Source: Pocillopora damicornis
Taxonomy: Eukaryota
Length of the DNA: 64,000 nucleotides
Direction: 5' to 3'
Assembly (NCBI RefSeq): GCF_003704095.1
Contig: NW_020846595.1
Location: 124,001-188,000, forward strand
The notes below the pieces were generated by a model, which worked only from the letters and a program-made list of their open reading frames with translations, was not told where the DNA came from and made no database searches. Shown here one piece after another: positions 29,037 to 64,000 of this stretch. Each line of letters starts with the position of its first letter. Within the stretch, counting starts at the first letter, position 1. A program made the position numbers and the translations under genes.

Positions 29037-32000
29037 ATGAACGTAAGTAGGAACTTAATTTCGCTTTTTAAACTGTCAAGCACCAAGTTAAAAAGCTAAG
29101 AAAATATTTTGTTAGTAGGTTACCTTTTTTGATTTTTGCCACCAGAGCAAAATTTCATTACTGATTAAAGGAGCCACGCATACACACCTGTTTTGATATC
29201 ATCTCGGTGTTATGCCTTATTTCATTACAATAGGTAACAGGTAATGAGGGCTCGATTCTACCTCAACTTTTCGTATTTTTCATCAAATATTTCATGGAAA
29301 CACAGTTATTACAGCACAGTTATTACCTGACAAGTTGGGATCATTTTTGTTCTTTTAAAAAAAAGACAGGTTAAACACTATTGATGATTTTTGTAGAAAT
29401 GCTTCAATTTTGGCGTCATGTGTTTAACTCAAAAGCTATGACCCTTATTTTTTCATTGTTGATTAAAGTCAACGTATCGAAGTTTTATAAATGTTAAGTA
29501 ACAGGCTGTGACGTACCTTGACCTTTTTTTTTATTTACAGGTGATTTTACTCGCCAGCCTTGTCTTAATGACAGCATTCGTAGTGAATGGCAATCCTGTT
29601 AAGGTTTGTAAAATAGTTTTTTTTTTCATTGTCAAAACGCACAACTAGTCAGAATTCAGGCAGCTTTTAATCGCAGTGCTCATCGATAGAAATTTTAGCC
29701 GATCAAGCACAAGTCCTTAATTCACTTAGATCTTTCTTCGTCTTCATTCCCGACAATTTCTATGGTGCATCCGGTTCAAACCCACAATCCTTTGTGGACT
29801 TGTCATTCTGGCCGCGCTCACCATCTCTGTTTTCTTTACTCCGTAATCTTTTTTGTATTTCCAAATTAGAAATTCGCCGATCAACAAGTGAACTGACATT
29901 TTCTTATTTTCAGGGATCGAGGGACTTAAACGACTTACGTCGGTACAAAAGAGCAGGTACAATTATCAGTTTCTAATGTTCTTCGCACCTCGACATTAGA
30001 ATTTGTTGTTGCGTTCTTTCAAGAGAACCTCAGGCGTTCCCTATATTTCGTCTATTAACTAGCACCTTTTGTGCAGTCTTAACTCGCTCTTTTTTTTTTT
30101 TTTTTAACGAAATTCAAGGTCCTTCAAATTATGAACCAGTGGGTTGCTACAGTTCTGGGAAACTGAAAAAGGCGAAAGTATTCGGCAAGAAGTCATACAA
30201 GAAGATTAAAGCCGGAGCAGAGAGACCCATTGATCAGTGCAGTGAAGGCCAGGATTATGCCATCATTGGAATCCAGGGGATAAAGAAAGACATTTCGTGT
30301 TTAAATGGAAACGAAGCAAAATGGGACCCAAATGATTTCAAAATGGAAAAAGAAAGCAAATGTCCCGGTGGAGCAGGATCGAAGAAGACAATCTTCATCT
30401 ACAAAAAAAGCGTGAATCCAGGTAGAGGAAATTATAAAGCAATTTGCGTTTCTCAAACTTTTAATTTTCGCTAAAATTAAAATTTTTAAAGAGTCAGGTA
30501 TCCAACCTGCACGCAAATCGATTGTCCCATCATAAGTGGGCTAAGCGCTCCCATTTTCGCTCCCTCACTTTCTCTATATCCTGCCAAGATAACCTTCATT
30601 TGCATCCGTGTTTTTTTCTGTTTCCTTAACTGGGCTGCGGAAAATACTGTGTCTGAGTGAACTTCTGCCACTCGGTTTTGCCTAACCTTTTTTTTTTTTT
30701 ACCTAACTCTTTGAAAATGCATTATCGCTAAAACCTAAAAGAGTTTGAGGGTAGCTAAAGGAAGGGTCATAGTCTACGGCTTTGGGATTTTCATTCACAC
30801 TTAAAGTTATTAAGTTACAGACAGTCTCCCGAAATTCTCTTCTGAGACCACCACAAATCCCTTTCAATTCCTTGACTGTCCCTAGCCTCTCAATACTCGA
30901 AATTGTGGCCTTCTACATGGCTGATCTTTGCAGTATATGCGCGCACATCGCCTGTCATATTTGAACCTGTAATTTCTTACCTCACAGAGTCTTCTGTTGC
31001 TCTGTGGTGTAGCATCGGTAGAATACTTCAGGGGACTCAGAATTTTTCCTTAGACCCACGCCCGAAACCATACGAAGACACGTCTTTCCTTAACCACATC
31101 TGTGTTCCGTAATGTCTTTTTAGGGATCGTAGCTGACGGGAAGTGCAGATACGGCGACAAAGTATTCAATGACGGAGAAGAAGCCCCAATATATCACAAG
31201 ACAGGCGACGTGTTTAACGACTATTGTGAATTGTGTGAGTGTATTAAAGGAAACCTGACTGACTGTATGCACATCAAATGTGACACTGGGTTGATGGGCT
31301 GTAAAGAAATTGTTTATCCATCAGAAAGTGGGGAGTGTTGTCCGAAATGCAAATCAGAACCTTTAAGGAGGAGTAAGTATACTTCAAATACATTTTCAAT
31401 GAAAAACTCCGACTATTATAATGGTAATATTAACAATGATTATAATAAGGAATATGATGATAAAATCCGAATTCCGAGGTAGTAAGGCCTGGAGGAGACA
31501 GTAGTCACTGTAGAGAACTACATCTCCTGAGAACCAAAACTGCAATGAGTCAATCCGCTTTTTAATGCGCTGCTAGAGAGGATTAGAACGAAATTCCAGA
31601 TGAAAATCTTCAAAAATTGTAAACTTTTAAATTCTCACTCGATTTAGATAAGACTCAATACAAATGTATTACTGAAAGATATAGGTTAAAATCAGTAATT
31701 TGATCCTGTCCTGAATAAACAATTTTGATTTGTCTTTAATTTGGTGGTTTCAGAGTGCGACGGCAGGCGATCTTGGTTGAGTTACGAAGATGACGTATGT
31801 TTATTTTGCGAATGCCACGGGCAAGTTTCCGCAACGTGCCGCGTTGTCAAACCTGCTTGCCAAGCTGTAAGTTGCAAAGATCCGGTTATCCCCGTCGGAG
31901 AGTGCTGCCCATATTGCGGTATTTACGAATTATTTTTTCATCATAAGACTGCACATGATAACGGTGGTCCTTTTTTCCTTTTGCCACGGATTAAAAATTA

Positions 32001-32276
32001 AACTGGAATTATGAGTGTCATATTGACGATATTTACCATAAAAATTTTAAATAAAGAGAAAGAAAATTGTGGCCAGGGACAACAAAGGTTAAAGAAGGAA
32101 AAACGGCGCTATATCTGTTGGTAAAATGAACGATGACGCATCAAGCTGTTTTGTTTTTCGTTGATCATAATGTTTCTTTCTTTTCTTAATCAGAACCACA
32201 AACAACTCCTCCGCCAGTGTTTACAATCAAACCAACGGAGGATAGACCAGAACCACCCTTCCCATTTCCTTTCTGA
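29037..32276 (+). CDS. Gene D: secreted prepro-protein with Lys-rich WSC-like domain, 2 VWC domains and FTI/PFPFPF tail, about 303 aa
   Basis: Exons 29037-29042 (MN), 29541-29603 (VILLASLVLMTAFVVNGNPVK), 29914-29956 (GSRDLNDLRRYKRA), 30119-30421 (YEPVGCY...IFIYKK), 31124-31372 (VWC, 10 Cys, CCPKC), 31754-31918 (VWC, CCPYC) and 32194-32276 (EPQTTPPPVFTIKPTEDRPEPPFPFPF*). All introns are GT-AG with consistent phases. Confidence 0.88.
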
Positions 32277-35200
32277 AGTGAAATCAAGAAGTAAAGATGG
32301 TAAACCGTTGCTTAGTTCGTAATCAGGAATACGTCGTTGTTTTTATCTAGTTTTTTTCCTGTTGATCGTCTTCTTTCAGCTTCCAGTGAGCATTTCAGTT
32401 CTTTCTTTTCGACCTCTATCAGTATTTCACTTTCAATTTTTGTCAGACTACAATTTTTTCCAATAAGATCTCGTTTTGTTTTAATCTTCCGTGACTCTCT
32501 TTAGTGCTGCACTTTGAAAAAAAAAAGCATATATTCCTTCTGAATCGATAAGCGTCAATCTCTGTTCAATTCATTGGTCTTTGAAAACCAGCAGCACAGA
32601 ACTTAACTAACTTTTCTGTAACTTATTTTCAGTTGCAGATAATCTATGAAATTTACAGTCTTATGGTGACTTCTCATCCTTCGTTAACTGTTGTATTCTG
32701 CAAATGTCATGTTGTTTTATAGAAATTACAACCAGAAATATTAAAAATGTTAAAAAGCAAGGAATTGGTTTAATTTATTAACTGTTATTTTATCTGGTGA
32801 GCTCCACATGCTTTTTGCATCAGTGTTCTTTGATAGCGTTATTGCAATTAGATGTAAGCGAGCCTTGAAATCGTAGAAATATTAATCGTCTGTTCATAGT
32901 TGCTATTTTCTAAAACAGACTTCTCGCGCTAATTATTCAGGCTAAATCATTATTGCAAATTTGTCAAGATTCTCTCTTGTGATGGCCATGCGGCGCCTTT
33001 TACGAACATACAAAGAGAAAAAGAAAAAAAGCCACTCGTTTTAAATAGAGCGACGTGGCTTGAAATCTGCAAGTCTAAAGCCGATTTAACAAGAAACCTT
33101 GATGTGGAGGCGGTGAAATTGTGAAAAGTTTGTTGAGGGTTTTAATCGCCTCTGTAAAGTGGCCTTTATCCGCACAGAGTTCCTCTATCTGGGAGGCGAT
33201 ATAAATTAGTGCGCGCGTGTTAACTAAAATTCAATTCTGTGGCCAAGAAAGTGAAAGATGACTCTGATTTGCAATTATATCTGGGGAAATTATGGGTGAT
33301 TGTTTACCTCGAGGGATTAATTACTCACGAATGAATAATATCAATAATTAATTTTATGGCCGAGATACCGCTGGTACTTAAATGCCCAAGAAACAATGCA
33401 TGAATGATTTTCATTTCTTATGGATTTAATTTCAATGATGATTTATCACCTCTGATACAAGTCGATTCAATTTTGCAAATTTGTTATATTTCACTCTGGT
33501 TATTATCTACGTGGGATCTCCTACCGACAAACAAAGAACTGAAAATCAACACAAACTTTGACCACACCGCCATATAATTTCCTTTGAGGTTAGCAATTGT
33601 AAAACTAGAAAAAATTTGGTTTTAGGCTCGTTCAATGAATTCTTTAAAACTGAACAGTTAGCTTTCTTGACCAAACGTAGAGCAGGTGACATCAGCGCTG
33701 TCACAATCTATCGTTACCTGTTTGCACAGCGTAGATAGAAAAAAAAAGCGCGTTCTTGTTTATTTTATTAGATTCAAAACATCAAAACTAGTGCCCCATG
33801 AAATGGAATGAAAGCCGAACATAAATTAAACAATGAAAACATATCTAAACTGTACCACGGCGCTAAACAAAAGCTTCTAATCATTATAATCTGCCCAGCT
33901 GGAGATCAATTTAAGTTTGCATATTTATCTAAACGTAGATTTAGACAATCTGCAGAGCCTTCACTTCGTTGTTATAGTGCGTAGGATCTGTTTCCACAAG
34001 TACACCGTTCAAGGTAGGTTCAGTTCCTCTAGAAGGTATAACCAAAACTCCTACTGTAAGATTCATCTTAGAATGTCCTTTCAAAAAAGATATCCCTTTT
34101 AACTGAGCAAGGGTTTTCTGTCCGCCTCACACTCAAAGAGGTTCCTTCCTCAAGGTATTTTGCGAAACTTCACTCTGAGATAATATTGGTTGCGACACTT
34201 CCCAAAAACAACGTTTATGATGTTCTATCGCCCCTCTCCTCTTCCTTACAATGTTTTAAAGTACTGATGCGTCCATACCATCTTGTAGACCAACATTGAG
34301 AGGGGCAGGGATTTCAGTAAGCGTACCAAGAAATGTGTCTGGGAGTATATCTCGCATGATACAATAATCCAACAAGCGGATCAATTTACTAGTTGTTAAA
34401 GTAAACTGTTTTTTCGCTAAAATGAAACTGTAGTGGCAAAATTTCTAAATTTTGTCATCAAATCTATCAAAAAAGCAAAGAAGGTATCCCAGAGTTTTTT
34501 ATACAAGGAGCACAAAGCCAAAATCTTAATTAGTTTCTTGGAAGGGTGCACTTAGACATTACACAACAAGTGTTGTCTTTAGCATGTTTTGCCTGTGCGA
34601 AGTTTGTGGCTTCTTGATTTTCATAGACAATGAAGTAAGCAAACCGTAGCTGAAAACAAATGGAAATCATAAATGCCATTTTCTGATAAACGAAGAACTT
34701 AGCATCTTTTGTTAACTCCAGAGATTCTTCAAATGTCAAGGATCACGTAAGCAAGACTTGCAGTTAAGAAGTCCTGATGCAATTAATACAGTGCAATCCT
34801 ATCAAGGTTCTTTCGATACAGTCAGTACAACATAATACTCAAACCAAGTTGAATGTTCCTTGAATTTAGCATTGTTTATCTAGCTTAAAAAGCTTTAGCC
34901 CACAAGCGAATACAAAACAGAAATCCCGTAATTTATTGATGAATTCGCCATTGACCAATCAGGAAAGACATTTTTTGTAGAGTAAAAAAATGCTTGATAC
35001 TTGTTTGGTTTCACATATCATTTGCACCTAGTAACGACTGCTACGTCTGCACGATAGTGTTACCAGTTTGTAAATGTTCCGGTAAATATTCAATATATCA
35101 AGTATATATCCAGAATAATGACAACGAGATTGAAAAATAGTTTTTACTGCTGTACAATATAGGTTAAGCGTTAATCACTTAAAAGTTTAAGAAATTTCTC

Positions 35201-35422
35201 GTCGTATGATTTCCCTTGAGGCCAGATTACTTCCTTTATAAACTTAAAGGCGATAAGGATTAAATCTCCACCGGCCGGTGAATTCTTTATCACGTTCTAT
35301 CTTAACCACTTATGATATGGACTCATGGTGCCGGTTATAACACGAAGTCTACAACCTAAACCACGGTTTTACGCAATCAGTGGGCCTTGGGCTTTCTCTA
35401 TGAGAAGGTGAATTTAATTAAA

Positions 35423-35720
35423 CTAGTAATAATCAAATATTAGTAAAGTGCATTCGATCTCTAGCAAAAGGTTTTTTTTAATCGTACTGATTGTGCTGAT
35501 CTGTGTGTTTTCAGCTCAAGGCGGTCAAGAAAACATTTGCACATGAGATCGAGGCTATTTGTGCCACATAACAAGCCAGCCGGTCCAAAATGGTGCCCAA
35601 TACCTGAAATCGTATGGTATCCCGATCGATCCCCTTGGGACTGGTCCATAAAACCCTCGAGAGTAATTTCCGTAAAAACGACACGATTAGTACGCGTTCT
35701 CCTTCGTCGAACGCAATAGA
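35423..35720 (-). mobile_element. Non-autonomous Helitron-like insertion (298 bp) specific to duplication copy 1
   Basis: Absent from copy 2 (empty site tttaataaa|tgttcgtcca at about 40692-40710). The minus strand starts TC and ends CTAG, inserted between A and T with no target-site duplication. A GCGTTC/GAACGC hairpin lies at about 35694-35714. Confidence 0.7.
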
Positions 35721-35862
35721 TGTCCGTCCACTCTTAACACTCTTCACAAAAATAAATATACAGATAAGACCGTGAGAGACCGACACAGTTTCGTTAAACA
35801 GTGGCTAAACTTTGTTTAAATAAACAGCCCATGAAGATTTTTACACTTTTTCTTTTCCACAG

Positions 35863-47398: not shown

Positions 47399-50119
47399 AT
47401 GGTCGTCAAATTCAACGTGGTGCTTATCATCTTCGTTTGTATTTTAATTTCTATCGAGGGTCGTTCGGTTAAAGAGGTAAGTGATTCATGCAAAATACGG
47501 AATCGTTCTCTTACTTTAGATAGTTTGGCTTGGGCTGTTTACATAGATAACATTATTGTCTCTTGGGGAGGAACTTGCCGGGCTGAATAGAATAAGTATT
47601 GTTGCGGTAATTAGTTCCCTTCAACAATTGACTTTATCGTTTCCGTATAGCTGTACGCTTGCACCTAAATCGATAACTCAGGTTGTCATGAATAAAGGCA
47701 AGGGAAGAGATGGACCAAATTAATGTTCACTTATTTGGTTTTTTTTCAGGACAGTTTTGATATTGAGACCCATAACAAGTCTGTGGTGATGGAAGAACGA
47801 GGTACACGAAGAAAAATCGTTATATTGAAAACAGTTCATGAATTTCATGTCAATGTTTCAACCATTCTACTACAAAGGCAAGCGCGGTAAGCTGCAAGAC
47901 CAAAACGCAGTGCTTAGGAAATGACCACACGGTGACCGTCAGTCTTTTGTTGCGTAAACAGTGAACGGATGACATCTGCAAAACTCGTCAATGCTGGATT
48001 ATCGCTAGTATCCATTGCTAAATGATTCGAAACGAGATGCACCTTGAAAATAACCTGACCAAGAAACACCTTTTAGGAAAGTTGCCAAGTATGACTAAAA
48101 CTGGGTATCTTACAGATACTGGAGATCTTACAGATACTGCCTCTTACCTAGAACCGCAATGACTCATTATAAGTCTCTTGAAATGGAACATAATTCCCAC
48201 ATGAGGGAAATTAAAAAAATGCACAAAGTTATACAGTTGTCACGTAACTAATCAGTGTAAGATGGAAGACTATGTATGGCGTCCAGATAGTTGCTGCCCT
48301 GAATGCAAACAAAAAGGCGAGCCCTGTATTATTTTTCTCTTTCTATCGACATATGTCTCTAATGTGCCTAACATTTATTAACCTGTGAACAGTTTGTCTT
48401 TCTGTTCTTGTTATTAGTTTCTGAATTCTTTTCTTCAGCACGTACTCATGTTATAGGAGACTTTTAATTTACCCATTTATCTTCGATCTCCACATCACCT
48501 GTGTTTCTTTCATTTTGAGTTCTAACTCAGGTGCTCCGTGGTAGGGCCTAAATTCAAAATTTGTGGTTAGTCCAGCCGTGACAGCTATCGAAACTCTTAA
48601 GCGTAAAGAGAACGTCCAAGTTTATTACATCAAGGCCTAAAAAGGAAAAAAAAAACAACAAAAACAACATTACATGAGAGGGACAATATTTTCACATGCT
48701 TTTCACAGCTTCTCACGTTCCTTTATTTCACATGAAGTAAGTTTAGACTGTGAAAACCTCATAAAGAATTTGCTCTTTGCATTGATTTAACAATATTTCT
48801 GTTAGAGTTCCTTACTTATAGATTGTCAATCAGTAAAAATGTCCGCCTTATCCACTTTTATTTTCTTTTAGACCTTCAAACTCTTAATAACAAATACCCC
48901 AGATGGTTTTTTACTTTCCCGTTATGCACCAAATTCTTTCCCCCTCGATTCTTCAGTTACAAAGAGAAAATAACTTTCAAATCTCCAAATTCCTTGTTCT
49001 CATTCCTGTTTTGTATTTCGTCCTCCGATTAATTGTTTTCTGCAGGGACTGCAGATTCCCATTTTACATTTATTCTTGATCTACTTTATCTAAAGAATAA
49101 ACCCATGGCGATCCATGATCATTGACCATCATTGACGTTTTTGATTTACAGGTTGTTCCGATGACAGAAAAGTTGGCGAAAAATGGGAGAGGTTAGTGCG
49201 TTTGCCGGAGGGTGAGAAGGAAGGAATCTGTTCTTTATGCGAATGCAGCGCAGACGGTACAGAGTTTTGTAAAGAAAATCTTTTGTTATGCTTCAAACCA
49301 GAAGGATGCATAGAGACTGAAATGAAGCCGGATCACTGCTGTCCTCAGTGCAGTAAGTATCGGCAAAACAACAGATCCACTGGAAGTCCAGGCTCATGAT
49401 ACGAAACGAACGTGAAGGCGATTCTTTCTTCATTGCGTCAACAAGGGTCTAGTTTACGTTCGGTACAGGTCTTGAGCTTGGGATATCACTGGTGGGCCCC
49501 TCACACACACAAAAAAAACTTGCTAGTCAATCTAACACGTTATTGTGGCCAGAATTGTGGTAGCCCATAAAATATTACTTTTGAAAAGTTTTCAGCCTGG
49601 CTGGGTTAACATGATACTCCATGATGTAAAACAATTTCATTGCTTCGTTTGAGTTAAGATCACAACTAAATGGCGAACTCAGAGCCAGTTAATCTTTGCC
49701 TTTCTTCGTTCCCCCCCCCCATCCCCAGAACTTCTGTAGGAGAGGACCGAAGTGGATCAGGATAGCCATTGTTCAAGCCGAATGTTTAGTGACCCGTGTG
49801 GCTTGGCGACCGAAAACAAAATTGAAATTTCTAATCATTAAGTCTTCTTTCAAAAGAGATTGTGGGAACGTGAATGTAAGTGTTCTCTAGATCTGCAAGA
49901 AGAATAAAAAGTAGTCCATCCATAGTTAAACAAAGAAGCAACCACCTCAACCCCTGCGCAAGTGCATTTGTTTATTTTTCCTCTCGAACAAACCTTACAG
50001 AAACATGGGCAACAGCGGTTACTACACCACCACCCATCTTTACAATAGAGGAAGGTACAGAAGAATCCTCACTTCCGTTTCCATTTGGTTTCGATGCCAA
50101 TACGGATCAAGACCGATAA
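47399..50119 (+). CDS. Gene F: secreted single-VWC protein (first VWC exon decayed), about 149 aa; possibly a pseudogene
   Basis: Exons 47399-47476 (MVVKFNVVLIIFVCILISIEGRSVKE), 47750-47801 (DSFDIETHNKSVVMEER, phase 1), 49152-49352 (GCSDDRKVGEKWER...CCPQC) and 50001-50119 (KTWATAVTTPPPIFTIEEGTEESSLPFPFGFDANTDQDR*). The frame is open if 48205-48316 is skipped. Confidence 0.72.
48205..48316 (+). pseudogene. Truncated VWC1 pseudo-exon of gene F
   Basis: GKLKKCTKLYSCHVTNQCKMEDYVWRPDSCCPECKQK aligns to the 3' half of gene E VWC1 (GKFRKCTKLYYCEVGFLKCKVEDYEWLPGKCCPECKRK). It is preceded by an in-frame TGA at 48202-48204, the 5' half is not recognisable, and the donor is GC. Confidence 0.8.
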
Positions 50120-53100
50120 CAACAGGTACTGACAAAATATATATCTATAAGATTCCTTCTTTTCATGTCTGCGATAAAAGACATAATGGAGACGTTTCGT
50201 TTGTTGTTTTCCTTTTCTTTTTACTTATCACAGGATTTCTTTTTTAACGAGGAGGGTGGGTGGAATTTTGAGAGGGTACAACTGGAATAAAGACAACAGT
50301 AGCCTACCGTTGAAATCGATGATAACCTAGGTTATCTGTAACAGAACCTTACATATGTCTAGAATTACGAAGGAACAAAAATGCTCTGTTCGAGCTAAAC
50401 TTGCGAGATACATTGCCCTTGTTGGTTACCAATCTATGAGGCTTTTAATCTTATAAGTGACGAACTTCTCCAGTCTTATGCTTGTAAACGATCGATTTGG
50501 TGTAAGTCTTATCTCAGAACATCTTTTTTCTTTTTGCAGGTAATGCTTTTCTTCGGCCATTTACTTACAGGTGTGCATGATGTCGTGAAAAATTTTATTC
50601 CGCATTTTGTGGAAGAATCGTGATGATGAATCGAGCTTAAACAAGTCACTTTTGTGAGAACTGTATAGAATATGGAAATAAAGAGTAACCAGAAATGGAA
50701 ATACGGAAATACATTGTTATTCTCTACGGCAGTAATTGATATAAAGTCCATTGGTAATTGGCCGGTAATCGCGTTTGAGTTTGATTCAAATTGAATCAAT
50801 ACAATCCCTACAGTCAGGAAGTAAATCTTGCATCATATAAAATACAGAAAAACTTAGAAAAGAAAAATAAATTTTACAATAACTAGTGAGAAGATATCAT
50901 CACTCGACAACTCTTTCCTCTGCTCTCCTAAGCCTCTTTTTATTTTCTTTTATTTCCCTGTTCATCGTCTATTTTGAAAAGTGATTTAGAAAAAACGAAC
51001 TTAGATGGAATGGTTTATAATTTGTTTTTTCATTTATTTTTCTGTCACGAGTCATTTACTGACAGTTGAACAAATATCAGACAGCTCTCATTTTGGACGT
51101 AAGTTATTACTTTTACACTGGACCTGACCTGGCATCCATGAAAATTAATCATAGTGTAAATGGACGTTTAACACAACACGTTAGTAGCTTTAATTTAAAA
51201 ATGTTTAAATTTGTTAGCAGGAAATGAAGAAGCATAATTTTGATTAAAAAGTTAAGATCAGTTGCTTTCTTTAGTAAAATTTAATCCAAACAACTCATTT
51301 AACTCCAGGCCGTTTGATCGATAGCGGAGCCTTATCTCCAGCGGAGCCTCATCGCATACAGTCAGTTCTGAATGCCTTTTAAAACAAAGGTCGTCATTAA
51401 TATCTATTGCCTTCCGTAAACCGTTTGATTAAAATTTAGATAACAAATTGAATGATATATTAGGTCCAATCATTTACTTTTTCATTTCTACTCTTGAGTT
51501 TTATATACCGCTGTAGACGCCCAAATGTTGGACATACTGATGAATCAAAAAGCGAAAATTCCTAAGCGCTTAAGTTAAACTCATCTTTTCATCTCAGGTT
51601 GTCAATGAAAATATTGCCATATTCATGGAACCAGTCGCATGACCGTAAACAAACTGAGCCTAAATTAAAGTCCCAAACTCCATATAAACATACTTGCAAG
51701 GCGCAATTTAAGTGTCTAGACACTCATTCCACAAATTATCACAGGTGCGTTCTCAGTCGTATTTATTAAGATAAGGGTAAAAAACAATAAAGCTTTTGTA
51801 ATCAGTTATGGCATTGAAAAATATGACTTTAATCCAATCTCCACTGTGGCGTTAAAAAGGAGATTTAAATGAGGTTTCTGGTGTAATATTTCTGGTTTAA
51901 CAATCTGTTCATCTCGTGTAATAATCTTCTCGATTAATTGATCGGTTTTTAGTTTCCACGAATCAAGATAACGACTATGTCAGGAAGGTATAAACAATGA
52001 GACTGTGATTTAGGGAAAATTTGCAAAATAATTGCACGATTTATTTGCCACAAAAAAGTTGATATCAGAATTATCTTCTCTTAAGATAACATCTCTTCCT
52101 TACCATGAGTTCTTAAAGAAAGTTCCATAATTGATTGTTTTGTTCTATCTTTGCTATTAGTTGCTGCAAATTTGTCACCTGGTCAGTGAAATAAAGTAAT
52201 TTTTTAGTTTTCTCTCCTTTTTATTCTGTTGTGGCCAAAAAATTGAATGCCGATATTTACAGCCTGAAATATCAAGTCGTCACCACGCATTGTAAATCTC
52301 TTTCAGACATGAAGATTCGTTGAAACGAGCTCAATCAGTTGATAGACAGAAATTAAAACGAAGCTGTAAAATTCCCACAATTTATAGCCTTAAATGACAA
52401 AGGTAAAGAGATTTCCTTCTTTTGAAATTACAGTAACACGCAAAGTACTCAGTCATTCATAAAACTATTCGATGATTAAAAAACTGCTACCCTGTTTAAG
52501 TTGACCGTGTTCTCGCACGTGGAATAAATTCCCTTTGTAGTTACAATAGTAACGTGTCATTATCAGTAATTCATTTTTTCTCAGTTGTCCCACGCTCCTG
52601 TCCAATGTTTAACTTCTGTCTCCTACTCATGACAGCGCTCATGACTTAACGTCTTTCCTCACCTTCTCTAACACTACTCAAGACACTTTCATTCAACACT
52701 ACCAGTTGTATGTACCCAAGGAATTGGTATACGACCCAGCTCAGTTGGTGAAACTTCCCACCCTGGCCTAAAATCAAAAGGTTTGAGACGCAAGTTCTTA
52801 TTACAGCGGACCCCGTCATACTTTTCAATTTTTCTTGCACTCTGGAGAAAAATATTATAAAGAACCCTTCATTCTTGACATACCTAAAATTTTCTCTTTC
52901 CGTTCAAGTCATCGTGTTTTTTCAATTTATTATAGTTACATTTTCATGGTCGAATGGCTTGTGCGAAATTTTTCCATTAACAGTTCCAAGAAAACAAACG
53001 AATTTCCTCACCTTTTAAAGGGTTTTCTACTTAAAAAATTATCATAAACTCAGATTTATGACCCTATCCTATTCGAAAGAAATTTTCTACTTCAAAAGAA

Positions 53101-54747
53101 AGCAACTCAACATTTTATCATGAACGACGGACCTTTATGAGAAAAGATGAATCATAATAATAACTGCGGTATTGTGATAGAACAATACTAAACAGCTTTC
53201 CATGATTACTGATCTAGTTGCTCGTTATGCATTGGATTGACAAAGAGTATAAGATAGATGTTATCGCTATGTGCAGGAGATATTCTGTAAATGTGGCTAC
53301 AGACTTTCCTATCTCCCATTTCATAAATTTCTAATTTCTCTCATCGAGGTCTCTTCGATAGACAAGGAAATTGTTTTATTCTTGATGACTTTGAATTGGA
53401 AACAAAGCCAAATTTTAAATTACACCTTCAAAGTTTAATCATTTCAGCACTTATCCTTTTTTGATGGACAGTTTGAAAACTCGTTAAAAACCGATTGCCG
53501 AAACAAAAGGATAAAACAGGGGTGAGTTACGTTTCGCTTCATCCACATTAAGTTCCTGTTAATAAGATTAAGGGTGGTCATGGTTGTAAGGATCGTGATA
53601 ACTTAGGTAAAGTCTTTTACTAGTAGTATAAGTTGATTTTCATGCATCAATCCTCGCTTGAAATAACAAACTTAAATTTATCATGTTACTTTACAATTTG
53701 AATAAATGAGACAAGTTTTGATATGACAGCAGTGAATATAAATATTAGTTTTCTCTATTGACAAAGACGTTCTGCAATTTGTCTGATGAAAGTTCAGTTT
53801 TATACATTTTACCTCCAAAGCTGTTTTGACATTCAGTATTGCGAAAATGTCACCACAAAGCTATTCGTGTGTCGTTTAGTGTATTCTTTCGATACATCGC
53901 ACACTGCACGAGTCTTAGAACAAGTCAGTCAGACCATTGACCTCTTAAACTACTAAAATTTGTCAAACCATATGGCTATCGAGAATTAATTGAGGTCATT
54001 TCAATTAATTATTATCATTAATTTTGGTCATTCTGCTTAGCAAATTTTACCCTTATTGCCTGCTTAGTAGGTCGTTAAGTTCACTTATCGTTGGACAGGG
54101 ATACGCTACAGACCGTTGGATTAGTAATTGTTCCAAGCTAACAGTCGAAGGTAAGAAAATTGGTCTGTTGAAGTTAGGAATGACACTCGGTTAGTATTAT
54201 TTGAAATTCGCTCAAGCTTACAGTAATGTAGCTAAAAGAGACCACTTTTATAAATGAAGACACAGGTTCAACGCGTTTAACAATCCCTAAAATTTTCAAT
54301 GGTTCCGAAAAGCGGAACAAATTCAATTCCAACGAGAGTTTCTTTACACGTGGCTTTGTTTAAGGGGAAGAAAGTTGTTACGGATCTCAAACTGATATTT
54401 ATAAAAAGAATGGACCATAGAAACTTGTCCAGATAATCGAAGATTCCGTATAACTGAAGGTCCGGATAGTAGAGGTTTGTACCAAAATTCAGTATTTTAT
54501 GTCCGCGCCACAGCCAGGTAAACGATATGCATTCTTCTCGGCTAGTACACAACCGCTGCGACACAAAACTTCAATTTAAGCTAAACCCAGTTACTTATTC
54601 GTGGACAAAATTACCAGTCGTCTAGGGCTGTGCTGGTTTTTGATACCAAGATCTTGTAAAAGGCAACCTTAGTCAAAAAAATGAAATGACCACAACCACT
54701 CAACAGAATGTGAACTGCTCCTTTCAGACTGCACACGAGGTTCAAAA

Positions 54748-57293
54748 ATGGCTGTCAAATTCATCATAGCGGTTGTTTTCTTTATCTGTCTGTTTATGAC
54801 TTTAGAGAGTCGCTCCGTCAGTAAGGTAAGTAGTTGAGTACGATGCTGTTCTTGTATCTCCTTTAGTAATTGAAAACGCATAACTTTGACTGCTGTTGAA
54901 AATATTCGGAATAAATGCTATTTTTTATTACTAAGTATACCTCCGTTACTGACTAAACAACTCTCACAATCGTTGGGTTTGTTCTCAATTGCCATGGCAC
55001 GCCTTTATGGGTGTTTCTATCAGAGCACTATAGACACTGGAATTTCAGTGCCTTTACTCAGCCAAACGAGAGTCTTTGTACCGGAAGAAACGCTTCGGAA
55101 CAGCAAAAGCGAACGCTTAGAAGCAATAATTCGGTTAACAGCACTCTTGAAGCAGAAAGTTGGTTAGATAATCTCACTCCTCCACGAAAAGTAAAGCTAA
55201 CTTTTTCAGGAGTTCGTGCCCTTTTTTCCCTCCTACTTTCCATGCCACAATAAAGCAGCTACTTCCGGGATTGGTTCATGACATCAATGTTATTTTTCAC
55301 TTAAACGTGTATTTTGTTAATTTTCAACATGTGTCAACACAGGGATCCGTTGCACGAAGGTCTGGTAAGTAGGCATGCACAGTTACAAACAAGATTCCGA
55401 GCTGTAAGAACTGTAGGGAGAGGAAAGATAAAATATGTTTGAAAGTATGAAAAAGAGGGTTTTTTTAAAGGGTGAGATGATCAGTCTCATTTAGATTTGT
55501 CATTCGGAAATTGCCCCCACACGGCCCAAACATTGGCCAGTGGCCGTCGCCATTTTGAAAATCGCTTTTTTCATCTAACAGCAATCTGTTTGAACAATCA
55601 GCAACTACAAAAAAAGAGATCTTGAGTCAAACTGAACTTTTACCTATGACCAGACTAAAAGCCTTTCGAGAATCGTGCGTTCTGGTCGCGCGTGTGGGCC
55701 CAGGTTGATAAGCTGTTTTCAAAATGTTGGTTGTTGAGTCTAGAGTTAGCACATTTGAAGAAGATTTTCGAACACGTAAGCCACTCTTTGGGATCTCAAG
55801 ATGCAGTTACGAGAGTATGTTTCTTTTTTAATACATGTTCTGAAACTTGACTGAGTTTTATCAAAGGGTATTTCACCATGATTTGGGTTTAGAGTTTGGA
55901 TGAATTCCTCGCCTATACGCCACTCGCTTGCGCACCGCCCATCTCGGCTTTTGATCAAATTTGAAACTCGTCTTAAAAAAACGTTTCGTTGTGGACAGAT
56001 TATAAGCTGTTACATATTTTTCCTGTAGCACTTAACTCTATATTGTGACTGTTCATTACAGCCCCGTGCCATGGAGATGAAATCGTTTATCACAACATCA
56101 CTCACCCAATAGAGAGCGCTAGTTGCACATCCTGTATCTGTTCCCATGGATCTATAGGTGAATGTCATTACCACCATTGCGACATAGGACTGGGTATGCC
56201 AATAGAGGCATGCGACAACTGGATGACCGGAGAGGAAGGAATATGCTGTCCTCGATGCCGTAAGAGACGAAAATTTTATTTTAAGTAGATCAGAGTAACA
56301 GAGGTTTGTAATAAAGTTTGCCCTTAAAAACTAGAGGAGTGACTAAAACGAAAACTTGACTGTAAGCAAACCACAGAAATGATACGACAAAAACCGGTTT
56401 GTTATACATGAATGTCTGGCAGGCTATACCGAGAGAGAGCTACTGTGGAAATTTGTTCCTTTCAAGAAGATTTGGAGACAACTTTGTGTTAGCATCGGTG
56501 GTGAGCTAATTTATAGTTAATAGTGGGTTTAATTGAGTTTACTAGGGACAATTACTGTGTTTTCTATGGGAGTCGCTCCTTAGCAAGAATATTACACGTT
56601 GTTTAAGAAAAGTAGGTGGGTTTATAGGAGTATAGTGTTCTTCCTGTCGGTTAAACTATCCCCCTAACTATAATCAAAGCTAGAAGTCTTACTTCGTAAA
56701 AGTGGCATGGAATTTAATATATTTTCCTCCTAATTTTATTAGCTTGTGATAATGATGGTGATACCTGGGCCAAGCGCGTGAATTCCGAAACCTGCTATGA
56801 TTGTACCTGTAAAGATTCGTCAGCTCATTGCAATTTAGTCTATTGCCCAGAGTGTGATGGAATCGCTGAACCAATTCCCGGAAGATGTTGCCCCAAGTGC
56901 ACTCCAAGTTAGTTTCGGTATTAAGGCCTTGACACACTCCATACTTCATATTTTTTATTCGTTTCTCTCTCTCCTCGCGTCCTATTTTTGACATGCCTCG
57001 ATCATTCCTCTATTTAAACGCCTTTGCTTTTATGTTCTACTTGCTTTCCTTTGTTCCTTTTGTTTGTCTCACATTCTATTATTTTTGGTTGATTGAGTTG
57101 TAAAAAAGAAAGTATTTTCTCCCTGTCACTACCCCATACAGCGGTTCAACCGTCGACCGAGCCTTTGTTCTTCACGATCCCGCTGACCACAACAAGGCCT
57201 GAGCCAGAATTTCCATTCCCATTCCCATTTCGTAAGAAGCGCGTCATGATGTCACATGATAATAATGACGCACGTGCTGAGAAGTTGGTTTAA
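54748..57293 (+). CDS. Gene G: secreted protein with 2 VWC domains and FTI/FPFPFPF tail followed by RKKR, about 204 aa
   Basis: Exons 54748-54825 (MAVKFIIAVVFFICLFMTLESRSVSK), 55343-55364 (GSVARRS, 22-nt microexon), 56062-56259 (VWC, CCPRC), 56743-56907 (VWC, CCPKC) and 57142-57293 (TVQPSTEPLFFTIPLTTTRPEPEFPFPFPFRKKRVMM...KLV*). Confidence 0.87.
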
Positions 57294-60200
57294 GATTCAC
57301 CACGTGAGAAGAAAGGTGAGAACAAACGTCATTTTATTGACACATGCCAGTTATTTTAAAATACAGAGATTAAGCAGGGACAACGCAAAGCTTTGAAAAC
57401 GGTGCATACACTAGGCTGAAAACGCGTGATGCACACGACGTGAACATTCACGAAACGACACCTTGTGCATAGGAGTTTGAAAAAAATTCATTCCATTCCA
57501 GCGCTCCATTGCTCATTTTGTATTACGTTTTGTTAGCCCCATCTGCTAATTAATATCAAAGAAAAATTGGCACAAATCCATGATGACTAAAAGGACGATT
57601 CTTCTCGGCCGGAATCGCTTTATCACTTCCTCTTTTGCTTTTTGTATTTGCAGAATTTTCAAGATCTATCAAGACGAAAAAACTTGGAAAAAGTCACAAG
57701 CAATATTGGAAAGAAAATGAATCGAATCCGGACTTTTGATCGTGTAGTTGTATAATGGTGATTCTTTATTAAGTTAGCATGATGCAATAAACGAAACTGA
57801 TTTTAACTGAAATTAAAGAAACCTTATAATGCAATACAGGTACTTACATTTTTCGAGCTTTTTTAGAATATATATCATCCACGCTTATATACTTTCCAGG
57901 TCAAAGGTGTATCATGCTTTCAATACGACAAAATAACCGACGATGATTCGATTTTAGCTTGCAACGGTAGTCAAAATTTCAAGTTAAGTGGCTATTTATC
58001 GGCTAATTAATCTTCTAGTTTTAGAGATGGCAAGATTACCCAAACGACAGACGAGAATACAAATAATGGACGACACCTTACATCTTAACACAATAGCTAG
58101 GTAGTTTTTTGTGACACCGAGAACCAATTTTTCCTTTCTATTCAATTTTTGCACAGCTGTTGAAATAATTACATCTTTGTTTCACCAAAAATATACGAAT
58201 ATTCCTTTCAAACAACTCTCAACCTAAAAGCTAGGGAGGAAATCTGCGTCACCCATTTCATTTAGATGCTATCTCCTTGCTCCAGTACTTCCTTTTTTTT
58301 TTCCTTGGGTAAGTATTCTGGAATAAGATATGATTTTCCAATTGAAACAAAATAAGGTAAAATACTAAACTTGAAAACAAATTAGGAAAAAAAAGGCGTG
58401 TTAGACAAGGTAAGCCACACGCAATGTTAGTTACGAAATTAGCCGGAACTCAAAAGAAAGGAAACATTTGCTGTCGCCGGAGGGTAACATCACTGCTGAC
58501 GGATCTTTCAGATCTGACCTTTTTAACTTTGTTCTAAGCACGAGTAATTTTTTAAGTCTAAAAGAGTAAATCACACTTTTAGACAAAAAGTCTAAAAACC
58601 TTCATGGCATACATATGCATGGTAAAGGCGCAATTGATACTAACTCGTTTCGACTTAGGTTTTAAGTACATCTTCTGCGTCATTGATCCCTTCTTTAAGT
58701 TTCATGTTGTTTTTGAATTAAGAATCCTTCCGTTCAGGGAACAATTTTCTGTCAAAAGAAAACCAATTTCCTTTCTTGTTTAACCAGTTTCATTTACTTA
58801 GAAAAGGAGCAGATAACCATAACATCCGATATTCCAATTAACTTCTGTGAGGATTGCAGTGAATCTTTATCCTCTAGCAACAATTTTATCAAGATTCAGT
58901 CTCATAGCATTCTTTGTGGGTTTCATTTTAAGCTTCAACGCTAAAAAAATATCTTAATACTTAAGGATTTTCATTGAGTTAAAAAATTTAGGTACAATTC
59001 TGCAACCGGATTTTTGTCTAATTTGTTTTCTTTGCTATTCGTATTGAACAAACAATTATTGCCCACTCAGTATGCTTTTCAAAGTATCAATCTGATCATT
59101 TATACCATCATTAAACTAAACCAAACGCCTTTTCTTTCACTGGCGGTGGCAAAATTGAGCTTATAAGCCTAAAAATTGCTCAAATCCTGTTTTTCAAGTG
59201 TCGCTATTTTGAAAATGAAAATTTGAGTTGGATTTTTCGATCTTTCCTCAAGCGAAGTAACCAATTCATAATAACGAATTTGTTGTAAAGAACAAGTGTT
59301 TTAATATTTACCTTACAAAGCTGATGATAGCAACTGTTTGGTTTGGAAGAAAATATGTATTAAAATTCAAATTTCCTGCAACTTTAGGTTTTGAACGTGC
59401 TTGACATAAGAATTAGTCTACTTTAACAGCTCTACTAAAGGCTGGTGCCAAGACAAGATTCGGCCTGAATCCGTCCCCTGTAGCGCTTTCAACTTTGCAC
59501 GCACTTGAATGAAGAAATTTACTTTCCAGCACCAATAATTTTGAATTCCGGTAAGTGAGACCTACTTTCTCTTAACTGTCCATTCAACATACAAAAAAAA
59601 AGGGTTCACTGAACACGTTACAGCAACTTTATAACAATTCTCGGGGTTATTTGCTACTCTGAGCGGCGAGTCGAATTTTGGCTGCCCCTTTTTTTCGTTA
59701 TCTTTATAAGACAATTTTATTTGCCCACTTTTCTGTTTAAGATGTCTTAACTTATTCATATAAATTGGTGCTGAGATAGAAATTTTGGAAGCTGTTCAGT
59801 TATTAGCATTGATCCAAATGTAAGTTTGCGAGATGGAGAGGATTTTTTCTTTAAATTCTGACTCAAGGTATCAATATGGTAAAAGCTGGATCAGCTCTTG
59901 AGGCTATTTGCAAAAGCCTCAACAGAATGTCTTTTTCAGGGCAGCCAAATCTTTGAAATTAAGAGCCTTCACTTATTTTAGAGAGCTTTTGCGAGCGCGA
60001 AAATAAGAATATTAGGAAGCTTCCGTTGACATAGGTTTCAACAGCTGCAGGTTTTTTTTAAAAAATTAGAAAATGACCCGAAGTATCCTCCTGCCGAAAG
60101 GCTCTGACGCTGCTAAACACAAAGGGAATATCTCAAGACTGATCCTCCAAATTGAGGCCATTTGAAATACTTATTGATCAACCAACGACGACCAAAGCAT

Positions 60201-60299
60201 TTTTTTTCTTGGTGTCTCAAGGACACATTCTACTCAATCTAAATGGACATTGTACATTCTATTTTTTTCTGTGTGCTTATTTTTGTTTTCCCTGAAGGT

Positions 60300-63200
60300 A
60301 TGGACATAAGACGGTCTTTTCAAACATTTCTGGTCGTATTCTTCGTGGTTTTAACAATAGAAGGAAAGAAACATGACACTCTGGTAATTATTACGCTAAC
60401 AAAAACTTCATAAATCATCACAAACTCAGTGGAATCACTATGATCAAAGATCAGTTTATAATCTCATGATATGATGAGATTGTAAATCAATAAATATGAT
60501 AAAGGAGTTGCACCTACGGTGAGATGCGATGAAAATACGCAGCGTCGTTAAAAATCTATTACATATACTTCCTAAAAAATTAATCTCTGGTAATCTTTTT
60601 AATTAGTGGTGCTAAGGCAGCAGCTTTGCTGCGGTTAACAATCCGGCATTCAAAACACCTGATGTTCTTACAAGACTCGGCCATCTGCAAGACCCCTTAG
60701 CTTCTCCAACCCACCCTATTAACCTCTACTCTATTCATAAATCGTCTCTAAAGACTCACAAAGCTTTCATTGATTGTATTAGCAAATTTGCATTCGTTCG
60801 TTATTTGAAAATACTGCTAATAATATTTTGACTAATACCCTCAGGAGGCACGGGAAGAAAAGATCAGAACTGTCAGAGATGTTGAGGGTAAGAATTTATA
60901 AATAAATATTAAAGTATCCGACATTATTTACCGCCTGGGGAGGAGCTAAAAGAATCTCGTTGTGTTATTGAATTTACCTGATCCCCCTACGAGGCTTTTT
61001 AATATTCCTTCCCCTCCTCCTTCCCTCATCAGCAGTCAATTGGCAGTCAATTTTCAATAGTCCCTCCTTTATACTCTATCGGCGATAACTGATCCTCCCC
61101 CTTCATTTCCCTCTTAAAACACGCAAATCAGTCCGCCACACACACCCTTCAAGCGATAAATAACGACTGTTCCTTAGAAAGAAGACAGGCAATTGCGATG
61201 AAATGTTTCGTCATTTATTTCGCTTTTCAACATTTCGTTATTCGACCACTCCATTCTGTTGAACTCGCTGCGATTCTATTTTTTTCCAAAAGGTACACCT
61301 CTATGACGTTACCATACTTGATCCATTAGTTATGGTTCGCATCAGTATTACATATTTTGTGAAAAAAAAATGTTGTATTCAAAAAAAAAGAGGACTTTAC
61401 TTGGAAGAATTTGAAATTAATTAAATTTGAGGTTTGGGAAATTTCATAAGCTTGCGTAGTTGAAATTAGTTATTTTCCTATTTCTAGTTGAAATAGAGTA
61501 CGAACCAGTTGGATGTTTCAGAGACCAAAACAGCAAAAATCAACCTAGATTGTTAGATAAGTTGGTTAAAAACTTCAGAAAAAAAGGAAATTTGCCAGAC
61601 GGAAAAAATATCTGGGACTTTTGGGAAGATATGAGTGAAGTCATACAGCTTTGTGCCGAAAGTGCTTTTAAGGACGGATACACGGCCGTGTTTGGAATTC
61701 AGTACTTTGGAGAGTGCTGGTCTGGGAAAAACGCTGCGTTGAATTACGATAAATATGGAAAATCCGGCAACTGTATCAATGGCGTCGGAAAAGCAAGCAC
61801 CAATTATATTTATCGCATCAAAGGTGAGCTACATCAAATCACTCTTATGGGTTTTGATTTACTCATTCATTAATCCATCCATCCAACTGATTATGCTACT
61901 ACAGACATGAACTTGGTTTTAATAAAATAGTGTTTCTCAAAATTAATTTTTTTGCACTTGCATTGGCTCTTGCGTTTGCATTTCAAACCACACCATCTCG
62001 CGCGGCTGACTTTAGAAACAGGTACCATTTTCCACAGTTATATCTAACAACAGTTTTGGAAACTGTTGTCCACTTTGAGACACTAATGTCCGATTTTTGA
62101 TTTGGCCACCAAAGTCTGATTTTTTATTTTGGACACTAGATTCCGATTTTTTATTTTGGACAACCGTGACCGATTTTTCATTTTGGACTCAAGTGTCCGA
62201 ATTTTGTTTTGGACGCTAGTGACTCATTTTTGACTTAAGAAGCTTGAACACCAATGTCTGATTTTTGATTTTTGACAATAGTGTCCAATTCTTGAATTTG
62301 CGTTGAACAGGAAAGTAGTTATTACATTATCTATGTCTATGGAAGTCTTGTAGTCGAGACCGAAGCGTTATCTGCCATCTTTGAAAAGTACTTCAAATAC
62401 GATTGAATATCGTGCATTCCTGGTAAGTTGCGTTTGACATTTGAATACCTGTCTTACCCTAACAGTTGTCAACGTTTTTCCTCAGCGCATCCACTCCCAG
62501 TAAAATCTTCGCCGGCTTGTAATGTCGAAGGACAAACGTATGATGAGGGAGACAGCATGGAAGTGTACAATGGAGATCATAAAAACGGTCAATGTGATCA
62601 GTGTACCTGTGCGAACGGAAAAATAGACGACTGCCATTTCCTCTTCGACTGTGTCATGAACGATTCCAGTTGTAACGGCTATGTCAAGACATCAGCACAA
62701 TGCTGTCCTAAGTGCCAAAAAGGTATTACATAGAGGATATGGCAAGGTGACGAGAATATATAGATTTTATGTTCGAGTGCCAAGAACGATATCTTACGAG
62801 TCACGCAGCGAACGAGTGAGATACTGTTATTGTCACGAGAACATAAAATACATATATTCGAGGTGACGTGTAATTTTTATTTTTATTATATGGACAATAA
62901 ACATATATGATAGAGATTGAAAAGCAGGTTTAATTATGTTTATAAATGAACTTTGAATCGACCATACATCGTAGTATGAAGAGTTAGTATCAACAGGAGA
63001 TTCTAGGCTATCAACTGAGGACTAGGACGTTGAGAGATCACTCACAGACATGTGACTTGGTTGACAACTTAACCGTACAGTGAATAGCGACCGCAAATCA
63101 TGATCGTGAAATAAGCAAGAAAATATTCAAAAATTGGTTGATACACTGGTAAAATTTATCTTTTTATTTATTTCATTGCCTTGAATCATCCACAGATGTT

Positions 63201-64000
63201 CCCAGTAATGCACCTGTTTGTAAAGTCGACGACCAAACCTACAAACAAGGCGATAGCTTGGAACTTCTTAGAGACTTCCACGGCAAACAACTAGGCGAGT
63301 GTCATCAGTGTACTTGCATGGCAGGAAAATTGGAGAAGTGCCACAGAATCTACTACTGCGAGAAGAACAAAGCCGGGTGTAATAGCCATATAAAAATTCC
63401 AGGCCAATGTTGCCCGGCTTGTGCACGCGGTACGTAATTGTTTGATTGACTGGGTGTTTGGATGGAAGATAAAATAACCGACTCGCTAATCACGAGTGGA
63501 TGAGTGAATGACTGACTCACTGGTTAGCTAACTGGCTCGCAAACTCACCAACTGTTTGACTGACTCACTCATCAATTCACTTGCTCAGTGATTCAACTAA
63601 CTTGCTTAGTGACCCACTGCCTGACTGACGGACTGATTGACAAACTGACTGACTAGCAGGCTAGCAGGCTGGCTGGCTGGCTATCTAGCTGACTAACAAA
63701 CAGACAGACCCAAAGAAAAAAAAAAACAGACTGACCCAAGAACGACGCAAGGACTGACTGTCTGGAAATGACTGACTGAATTTCCCAATTGCATTCAGTG
63801 ATCATTCTCTAATTGCTCAACCAGTAAGAAATTATTAAAGTATTATATACAACCGCTTTTTTTTCAGTCGTACCCAAACCCTCCCCGCCTTACTGCAAGG
63901 TTGGAGCACGACATTACAAAGACGGAGAAAGTATGGAGGTGTTTTACATGTCCGCCGATAAGAAGACTGCGGCATGCGATCAGTGCTCTTGTCAGGGAGG
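60300..64000 (+). CDS. Gene H (3' incomplete): secreted prepro-protein with WSC-like domain and at least 3 VWC domains
   Basis: Exons 60300-60383 (MDIRRSFQTFLVVFFVVLTIEGKKHDTL), 60845-60887 (EAREEKIRTVRDVE), 61488-61823 (YEPVGCFRD...CAE...FGIQYFGECWSG...C.NGVG...NYIYR), 62486-62722 (VWC), 63196-63429 (VWC) and 63868 to window end (third VWC, truncated). Confidence 0.88.
62075..62295. repeat. Degenerate minisatellite (about 26-bp unit) in intron of gene H
   Basis: Recurrent tccgattttt(g/t)attttggacac-like unit. Confidence 0.75.
63445..63780. repeat. Degenerate tetranucleotide microsatellite (GACT/CACT/GGCT)
   Basis: Runs of tgactgac, ctcactca and ggctggct. Confidence 0.8.

What the first reader, a model, noticed from the sequence alone, without database searches (positions are those of the whole stretch)
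29037..64000. Tandem array of modular secreted VWC prepro-proteins diversified by phase-1 exon gain and loss
Seen: at least six same-strand units share one layout: signal exon (phase 0), short propeptide exon (phase 0 to 1), then symmetric phase 1-1 domain exons. Domain content differs: D WSC-like plus 2 VWC; chimera none; E 2 VWC; F 1 VWC; G 2 VWC; H WSC-like plus at least 3 VWC. Every complete VWC has 10 Cys with CxxCxC and CCPxC. Established: VWC modules bind BMP/TGF-beta ligands in chordin, BMPER and kielin, and occur in matrix proteins. Inference: a lineage-specific expanded family of BMP modulators or matrix/defence proteins.
Basis: partly seen in the sequence, partly recalled or inferred. 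Interest (0 to 1): 0.7.

Follow-up and report, generated by a model that had tools for sequence, protein, structure and literature searches.

The report
Ancient coral–anemone WSC–VWC gene cluster
A stony coral carries a row of six related genes for small, likely secreted cysteine-rich proteins, a family shared with sea anemones and labelled with other proteins' names in databases, which likely bind growth factors or matrix outside the cell.

Summary
The array is real. All exon models translate openly, and RNA contigs from four studies splice D, E, G and H. A further gene (I) lies just past the window. Hit labels name the coral Pocillopora damicornis. The story of diversification by exon gain and loss needs correcting. 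The VWC-less chimera X is the junction of one 4.6-kb tandem duplication. F has two VWCs in P. verrucosa and Stylophora; here a deletion removed half of its first VWC exon. The other differences are old: orthologs keep their layouts in Stylophora, Oculina, Orbicella and Montipora, and relatives sit together on one scaffold or chromosome in Actinia and Nematostella. The WSC fold is supported by a predicted structure (Z 11). Databases label members kielin-, chordin-, BMPER-, CRIM1- or NELL-like, but they lack those architectures. Function is untested: most likely a Brorin-like extracellular growth-factor binder (about 0.4), otherwise a matrix or mucus adaptor. An undescribed family of a known kind; moderate interest.

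The parts
29037..32276 (+). Gene D, 303 aa: signal, pro (dibasic site), WSC-fold exon 30119-30421, VWC exons 31124-31372 and 31754-31918, Pro/Thr tail exon 32194-32276 ending in PFPFPF
   Evidence: Model; RNA joints; RefSeq protein P0108 and Stylophora ortholog P0150, 84% identical
31905..36527 (+). First copy of a 4.6-kb tandem duplication (D last intron and tail exon, spacer, X-type signal and pro exons)
   Evidence: Self-BLAST; alignment, 15% substitutions overall, 9-16% in 10 of 12 bins
35863..37225 (+). Unit X: E-like signal exon 35863-35955 and pro exon 36188-36245 next to a D-like tail exon 37140-37225; junction product without VWC, probably an alternative 5' end of E and not its own gene
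   Evidence: RefSeq models P0016 (P. damicornis) and P0076/P0078 (P. verrucosa isoform X2) join X-type 5' exons to E's VWC exons
36528..41521 (+). Second copy of the duplication; the duplicated VWC donor site is lost at the junction
40819..43307 (+). Gene E, 232 aa: signal, pro (GC donor), VWC exons 41725-41949 and 42263-42460, tail exon 43186-43307
   Evidence: three joints in 4 of 4 runs; Stylophora ortholog P0151, 77% identical to P. verrucosa E
47399..50119 (+). Gene F: signal, pro, broken first VWC exon, VWC exon 49152-49352, tail exon 50001-50119; paralog of E
   Evidence: two-VWC orthologs P0093-P0096, P0022, P0138
48203..48317 (+). 3' half of F's first VWC exon; acceptor and 5' half are missing in this assembly
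   Evidence: 37 of 38 residues identical to intact P. verrucosa exon; an X12 contig leaves the window at 48202 with acceptor-like letters
54748..57293 (+). Gene G, 204 aa: signal, pro, VWC exons 56062-56259 and 56743-56907, tail exon with FPFPFPF then a basic site
   Evidence: four coding joints each in 3 of 4 runs; relatives in Stylophora, Oculina, Acropora
60300..64000 (+). Gene H, 512 aa, runs past the window end to 65526 (extended coordinates): signal, pro, WSC exon 61488-61823, VWC exons 62486-62722, 63196-63429, 63868-64098, about 64600-64832, half-VWC 64952-65086; no Pro/Thr tail. A sixth gene, I (308 aa: signal, pro, WSC, 2 VWC, Pro/Thr tail, KR), follows wholly outside the window at L001 6080-9316 (extended 68080-71316)
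   Evidence: five coding joints of H in 4 of 4 runs; H orthologs 55-77% identical; I matches RefSeq protein P0120

Best explanation
This is a tandem cluster of six genes (D, E, F, G, H, I) of an old coral-and-anemone family whose products are predicted to be secreted and likely act as Brorin-like extracellular binders of BMP/TGF-beta-type growth factors. Shown: separate spliced genes, signal-type N-termini, chordin-type 10-Cys VWC pairs, a conserved Pro/Thr stalk with an aromatic-proline end, and old orthologs with fixed layouts. Predicted: the N-terminal domain has a WSC fold. Inferred: the ancestral gene was signal-pro-WSC-VWC-VWC-tail; the symmetric WSC exon was dropped several times; H grew by duplicating the first VWC exon and lost the tail. 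Inferred mechanism: convertases trim the short propeptide and the C-terminal extension, the VWC pair holds a cystine-knot ligand, and the WSC head (where kept) and the stalk tether the protein to glycans in matrix or mucus. X and the one-VWC form of F are recent structural accidents, not designed variants. The genomic and evolutionary part deserves about 0.85; the ligand-binding role about 0.4.
For: Gene structure and splicing. Orthologs. Oculina locus tags I=G026602, G=G026604, EF=G026606/7 and H lie on one 33.3-Mb sequence, the tagged ones in matching order; three Nematostella and two Actinia members share a sequence of the same length. WSC fold: model pLDDT 77.8, Z 11.3 (rmsd 2.6, 88 aligned) to yeast Wsc1 and Z 11.0 (rmsd 2.0, 88 aligned) to Kremen1. 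WSC in 17 of 31 family rows, at least 5 changes. H VWCs group with first-position VWCs, SH-aLRT 89. Brorin has two 10-Cys domains and antagonises BMP (PMC5407822, start of abstract). The genome has 20 TGF-beta domain matches.
Against: No direct evidence of ligand binding or of where the proteins sit. The VWCs are divergent: 3 of 13 cluster exons appeared over the Pfam cut-off in the genome search (a lower bound), and the closest solved sequence is collagen II VWC at only E 0.007. VWC domains differ in function and binding mode (PMC10326224, passage). Family monophyly is only 81/79 and unstarred. Long branches in D/E/F and deletion alleles of F fit a dispensable or defence role as well. Cleavage, amidation and glycosylation are inferred from motifs only. 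Losses of WSC in transcript-derived rows may be exon skipping.
Confidence: 0.45

Rival explanations
1. The proteins are structural adaptors of mesoglea, mucus or the surface coat: WSC binds glycan, VWC binds collagen or other matrix proteins, and the hydrophobic proline tail drives self-association; no growth factor is involved.
For: Nearest solved VWC by sequence is collagen II; fold searches return NELL2, fibronectin type I, mucin and VWF modules; Pro/Thr/Ser make up 34-60% of the first 30 tail residues in 30 of 31 family rows; other WSC proteins are in the Nematostella matrisome lists (PMC12549020 supplement rows).
Against: A Nematostella row described as cnidarian-specific with Brorin as best hit (NV2.3424) has no proteome values in the mesoglea table, but I could not show that it is a family member. 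No VWD, collagen or cystine-knot polymerising domain is present.
Confidence: 0.3
2. The proteins are secreted defence or venom-associated factors: WSC recognises microbial glucan or chitin and the VWC pair acts as a cytokine-like or opsonic module.
For: Tandem family with long branches in D/E/F, presence/absence-like variation in F, dibasic and Gly-dibasic ends typical of granule products (14 and 5 of 31 rows). Fungal WSC domains binding carbohydrate and arthropod single-VWC immune proteins are recalled, not from a call.
Against: H and I are well conserved (H 57% and I 52% identity to Montipora); copy number is small and order is stable.
Confidence: 0.17
3. One reading: seven or so genes of a recent lineage-specific expansion, diversified by ongoing gain and loss of phase-1 exons, with X a VWC-less gene and F a one-VWC gene.
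For: X is in frame with only in-frame indels; RefSeq lists one-VWC F products for this genome (P0089, P0090) and an unnamed protein matches a Stylophora F that skips VWC1 (P0171); E/F split within pocilloporids.
Against: One duplication junction explains X; no joint from X's 5' exons to X's tail was among those listed (17 joints not shown); F is two-VWC elsewhere; layouts are conserved across robust and complex corals and anemones.
Confidence: 0.07
4. The exons belong to one or two long kielin- or CRIM1-like genes.
For: Some gene models fuse neighbours (P0091 E+F, P0122 H+I, P0149 D+E).
Against: Each unit has its own signal exon and stop; separate transcript-derived proteins exist for D, E, F, H, I; UTR introns flank D, G and H; no inter-unit joint among those listed.
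Confidence: 0.01

Closest known systems
Brorin (VWC2) and VWC2-like
   Same: Small secreted protein built on two tandem 10-Cys chordin-type VWCs; same layout as E, F, G.
   Different: No WSC head or Pro/Thr aromatic-proline tail seen in the shark VWC2-like row P0258; it falls with the outgroup in the tree, though a clade with I is not rejected (p-AU 0.17).
Kielin/chordin-like protein (KCP) and BMPER/Crossveinless-2
   Same: Tandem VWC repeats; these are the automatic names given to several members.
   Different: KCP hits are mostly 1300-2000 aa and many carry a VWD domain (PF00094); family members are 200-520 aa with 2-4 VWCs and no VWD.
Chordin / chordin-like, CRIM1, NELL1
   Same: Share the VWC module and lend their names to some members.
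   Different: No CHRD, IGFBP, antistasin, EGF, laminin G or transmembrane part in the models (domain content of those families recalled; Pfam columns show PF00093 and PF23334 on family hits, one row also a DUF).
Kremen1 and fungal Wsc1 WSC domains
   Same: Predicted fold match, Z about 11.
   Different: The cnidarian module has 4 Cys, scores below the Pfam cut-off, and is a mobile exon with at least 118 matches in this genome; here it is soluble and fused to VWCs.
CCN matricellular proteins
   Same: Modular secreted adaptors containing a VWC.
   Different: Different partner domains; analogy only.

Membership tests
VWC (chordin-type) domain | Ten Cys with CxxCxC and CCxxC | tested here: met
   13 of 13 aligned exons; regex count
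VWC (chordin-type) domain | Pfam PF00093 above curated cut-off | tested here: inconclusive
   1 of 10 exons; 3 cluster exons in the genome search; the rest weak or no hit
WSC domain | WSC fold | tested here: met
   Predicted model of I: top four matches at Z 10.4-11.3 (Wsc1, Kremen1 twice, a glyoxal oxidase), next Z 6.8; D and H by homology
WSC domain | Pfam PF01822 above cut-off | tested here: not met
   16.9 and 19.3 bits against 27.8
WSC domain | Carbohydrate binding | not testable with these tools
   Needs a glycan array
KCP / BMPER | Many VWCs followed by a VWD domain | tested here: not met
   Complete models end after 2-4.5 VWCs; no PF00094 on family hits
Brorin / VWC2 | Signal peptide plus two VWCs | tested here: met
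   E, G and intact F; signal peptides judged by eye from the hydrophobic N-terminus, no predictor run
Brorin / VWC2 | Orthology in a tree | tested here: inconclusive
   Family on one side at 81/79; clade of I with VWC2-like not rejected, p-AU 0.169; only one named VWC2-like row was available
BMP-binding VWC proteins | Binds BMP/TGF-beta ligand | not testable with these tools
   Needs a binding assay
Coral skeleton-specific matrix proteins | Restricted to calcifying corals | tested here: not met
   Members in Nematostella, Actinia, Exaiptasia, Actinostola; presence in the skeleton itself was not tested

The most novel reading that the evidence does not exclude
A hexacorallian-specific family of WSC-VWC-VWC proteins, clustered since before corals and anemones split, is an overlooked set of glycan-tethered BMP/TGF-beta modulators whose aromatic-proline C-terminus, freed and sometimes amidated by convertases, is a new docking or assembly signal; loss of the WSC exon would switch paralogs from tethered to diffusible.
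Probability: 0.2. Interest if true: 0.7.

Novelty: new variant of a known kind. Interest (0 to 1): 0.38.

Why it matters
BMP signalling patterns the second body axis of corals and anemones and is linked to calcifying tissue, so an unrecognised, conserved family of soluble VWC proteins would add candidate regulators that can be tested in Nematostella. It also matters for annotation: coral expression studies cite 'kielin/chordin-like' genes as BMP components, and that name sits on members of this different family in the databases. If the role is structural, it is a modest addition to the cnidarian matrisome.

Tried and rejected
Complex prediction of I's VWC pair with a coral BMP2/4 dimer gave no answer; it is no evidence either way. 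The model of H was poor (pLDDT 60.9) and its fold search gave only low-TM matches. The atlas search gave only leads under 0.9, all WSC. A scan of metagenome contigs for the F deletion junction found nothing, so allele versus assembly error is open. X's tail exon had no listed RNA cover, which proves nothing. False haplotype duplication for X was considered: 9-16% substitution in most bins and X-type exons in P. verrucosa models argue against it. Contig depths were not used to rank genes. Three look-ups in earlier scan findings returned nothing. Literature searches found no description of this family; the accession search hit only an unrelated receptor gene. 'Kielin-like' mentions in PMC8086859, PMC4320547 and PMC5015328 (passages) give no accession I could match. 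Supplements of PMC8086859 and of the Stylophora cell atlas PMC8162421 were not seen; they may hold skeletal or cell-type data for these genes. The third named homolog search returned only 7 proteins, so the range outside Hexacorallia is not settled; P0202 and P0256 are divergent and unnamed.

Full report
Observation. I rebuilt the exon models by coordinates. Stretches fetched from the same contig show H ending at 65526 with four complete VWCs and a six-Cys half domain, and a further gene I at 68080-71316 (extended coordinates). No other CCPxC exon was found in the 182 kb read. Of 32 introns, 30 are GT-AG and 2 GC-AG; nine complete VWC exons lie in the finding, none in the first 29 kb, none in 100 shuffles. 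The ten cysteines are invariant in 13 of 13 exons. Pfam support is weak but consistent: 7 of 10 VWC-type exons hit VWC, one above cut-off; both WSC-like exons hit WSC below cut-off.

Separate, expressed genes. RNA contigs of four runs from four studies were laid on the region. They bridge five of D's six coding introns among the joints listed, three of E's four, all four of G's and all five of H's in the window, plus UTR introns after D and around G and before H. No listed joint links one unit to the next (17 and 8 weaker joints were not shown). Full-length proteins for D, E, F, H and I exist as separate records, and those on a contig of the same length are labelled Pocillopora damicornis. A few gene models fuse neighbours (P0091, P0122, P0149).

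Unit X. The stretch 31905-36527 is repeated head to tail at 36528-41521, with 15% substitutions overall and 9-16% in 10 of 12 bins. The junction joins E's second intron to the end of D's last VWC exon, whose donor is lost in the copy. X is therefore E's 5' exons beside D's tail exon, made by one event. RefSeq models in this species (P0016) and in P. verrucosa (isoform X2, P0076/P0078) splice X-type 5' exons onto E's VWC exons, so the duplication is probably shared between species and X probably serves as an alternative start of E. I saw no RNA joint for either splice of X.

Unit F. P. verrucosa, Stylophora and the full-length transcript-derived orthologs listed have two VWCs. Here the 3' half of the first VWC exon remains at 48203-48317, identical at 37 of 38 residues to the intact exon, and a contig of run X12 leaves the window at 48202 with acceptor-like letters. 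Runs X1 and X10 splice F's signal exon to 50569, past all coding exons, and an X1 contig jumps from 47745 with 11 letters that match near 50222, which hints at a larger deletion allele. F looks like a gene with deletion alleles; an assembly error is not excluded (one search found nothing).

Age and range. H orthologs with the same layout occur in Orbicella, Oculina and Montipora; the eight other rows aligned are 55-77% identical to it. D, E, F have Stylophora orthologs at 77-84%. Oculina tags run I 602, G 604, EF 606/607 with H on the same sequence. The profile search of representatives gave 59 proteins at E up to 1e-10; among its hits are WSC-VWC-VWC proteins named from Nematostella, Actinia and Actinostola and a WSC-less one from Exaiptasia. 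Three Nematostella members share a 22.0-Mb sequence and two Actinia members a 312-kb scaffold. The family is thus at least hexacorallian and not tied to a skeleton. I looked up names for 20 of the new hits among the 150 listed; range beyond Hexacorallia is open.

Evolution of the layout. In a tree of VWC1+VWC2 (31 family rows, 10 outgroup rows; H, single-VWC rows and seven outgroup proteins left out) the family is one side of a branch at 81/79, D is sister to E/F at 98/96, and a WSC-bearing row nests among G-type rows. WSC is present in 17 of 31 rows, including the deepest-branching ones, with at least 5 changes; repeated loss is my inference, and some absences may be skipped exons. The WSC exon is a mobile module with at least 118 matches in this genome. 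In a single-domain tree (85 rows, 67 columns, many open forks) all H VWCs fall with first-position VWCs at SH-aLRT 89, so H likely grew by exon duplication. A clade of I-type rows with a shark VWC2-like protein is not rejected (p-AU 0.169), so distant orthology to Brorin stays possible.

The tail. After the last Cys comes a Pro/Thr-rich stretch and an aromatic-proline motif such as PFPFPF, matched in 25 of 31 family rows; 14 of 31 have a dibasic site late in the tail (one lies before the motif) and 5 of 31 have Gly before it. The pattern was written after seeing the data and has no control. In D the motif is the C-terminus; in others cleavage would expose it. That, and amidation, are inferences.

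Structure. A model of I from 24 sequences has mean pLDDT 77.8. Its N-terminal domain matches Wsc1 (Z 11.3), Kremen1 (11.0, 10.9) and a glyoxal oxidase chain (10.4), well above the next row (6.8); the VWC parts give weak matches to fibronectin type I, collagen II, CCN3 and NELL2 modules (similar).

How it likely works. The closest functional model is Brorin, a secreted BMP antagonist with two 10-Cys domains (PMC5407822, start of abstract). A review passage says Crossveinless-2 binds BMP2 through subdomain 1 and an N-terminal clip, and that VWC domains differ in function (PMC10326224). The genome offers 20 TGF-beta domain matches. I therefore commit to a tethered growth-factor binder at about 0.4, with a purely structural matrix or mucus role (0.3) and a defence role (0.17) as rivals. 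Nothing here shows binding or location.

Literature. Eight searches found no description of the family; most subscription papers and most supplements are not covered. I saw term counts or passages of 10.64898/2026.03.24.713908, PMC8086859, PMC10838073, PMC9080433, PMC12549020 (plus supplement rows), PMC13581030, PMC4320547, PMC5015328 and PMC10326224, and only listings of the rest. PMC12549020 lists three Nematostella 'Kcp-like' genes, one marked cnidarian-specific with Brorin as best hit; I could not match it to a family member.

Verdict. A real and apparently undescribed family of known modules in a conserved cluster. The exon-shuffling story holds only for old events; the two most striking variants are a duplication junction and a deletion. 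New variant of a known kind, interest 0.38.

Noticed in passing
L001 6080-9316 (just beyond the window end): Gene I, a sixth family member (WSC + 2 VWC + tail) and the one closest to the anemone relatives.
   Followed up: yes
window 10301-10795, 17015-17266, 22444-22896 (+); Ser/Thr/Pro-rich frame 21749-22132: Three exons with a single transmembrane stretch and a shared cytoplasmic motif (GITH..A..DS) suggest a separate tandem family of mucin-like membrane proteins just upstream of D.
   Followed up: no
window 4260-4877 (-): Long open frame of MORN-type repeats, resembling radial spoke head protein 1 by recall.
   Followed up: no
G000:C2706:20541-65243 (-): About two dozen WSC-like exon matches in one 45-kb stretch, possibly one very long WSC-repeat gene; other clusters on C4317, C1390, C4228, C3577.
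   Followed up: no
window 36800-36950 and 40250-40760: High-copy repeat elements: many unrelated RNA contigs lie here with loose ends.
   Followed up: no
L001 2952-3086: H ends in a six-Cys half VWC that is kept in the orthologs printed; it likely corresponds to the first subdomain only.
   Followed up: partly
window 43747-44119: A 186-base direct repeat, 94% identical, between E and F.
   Followed up: no
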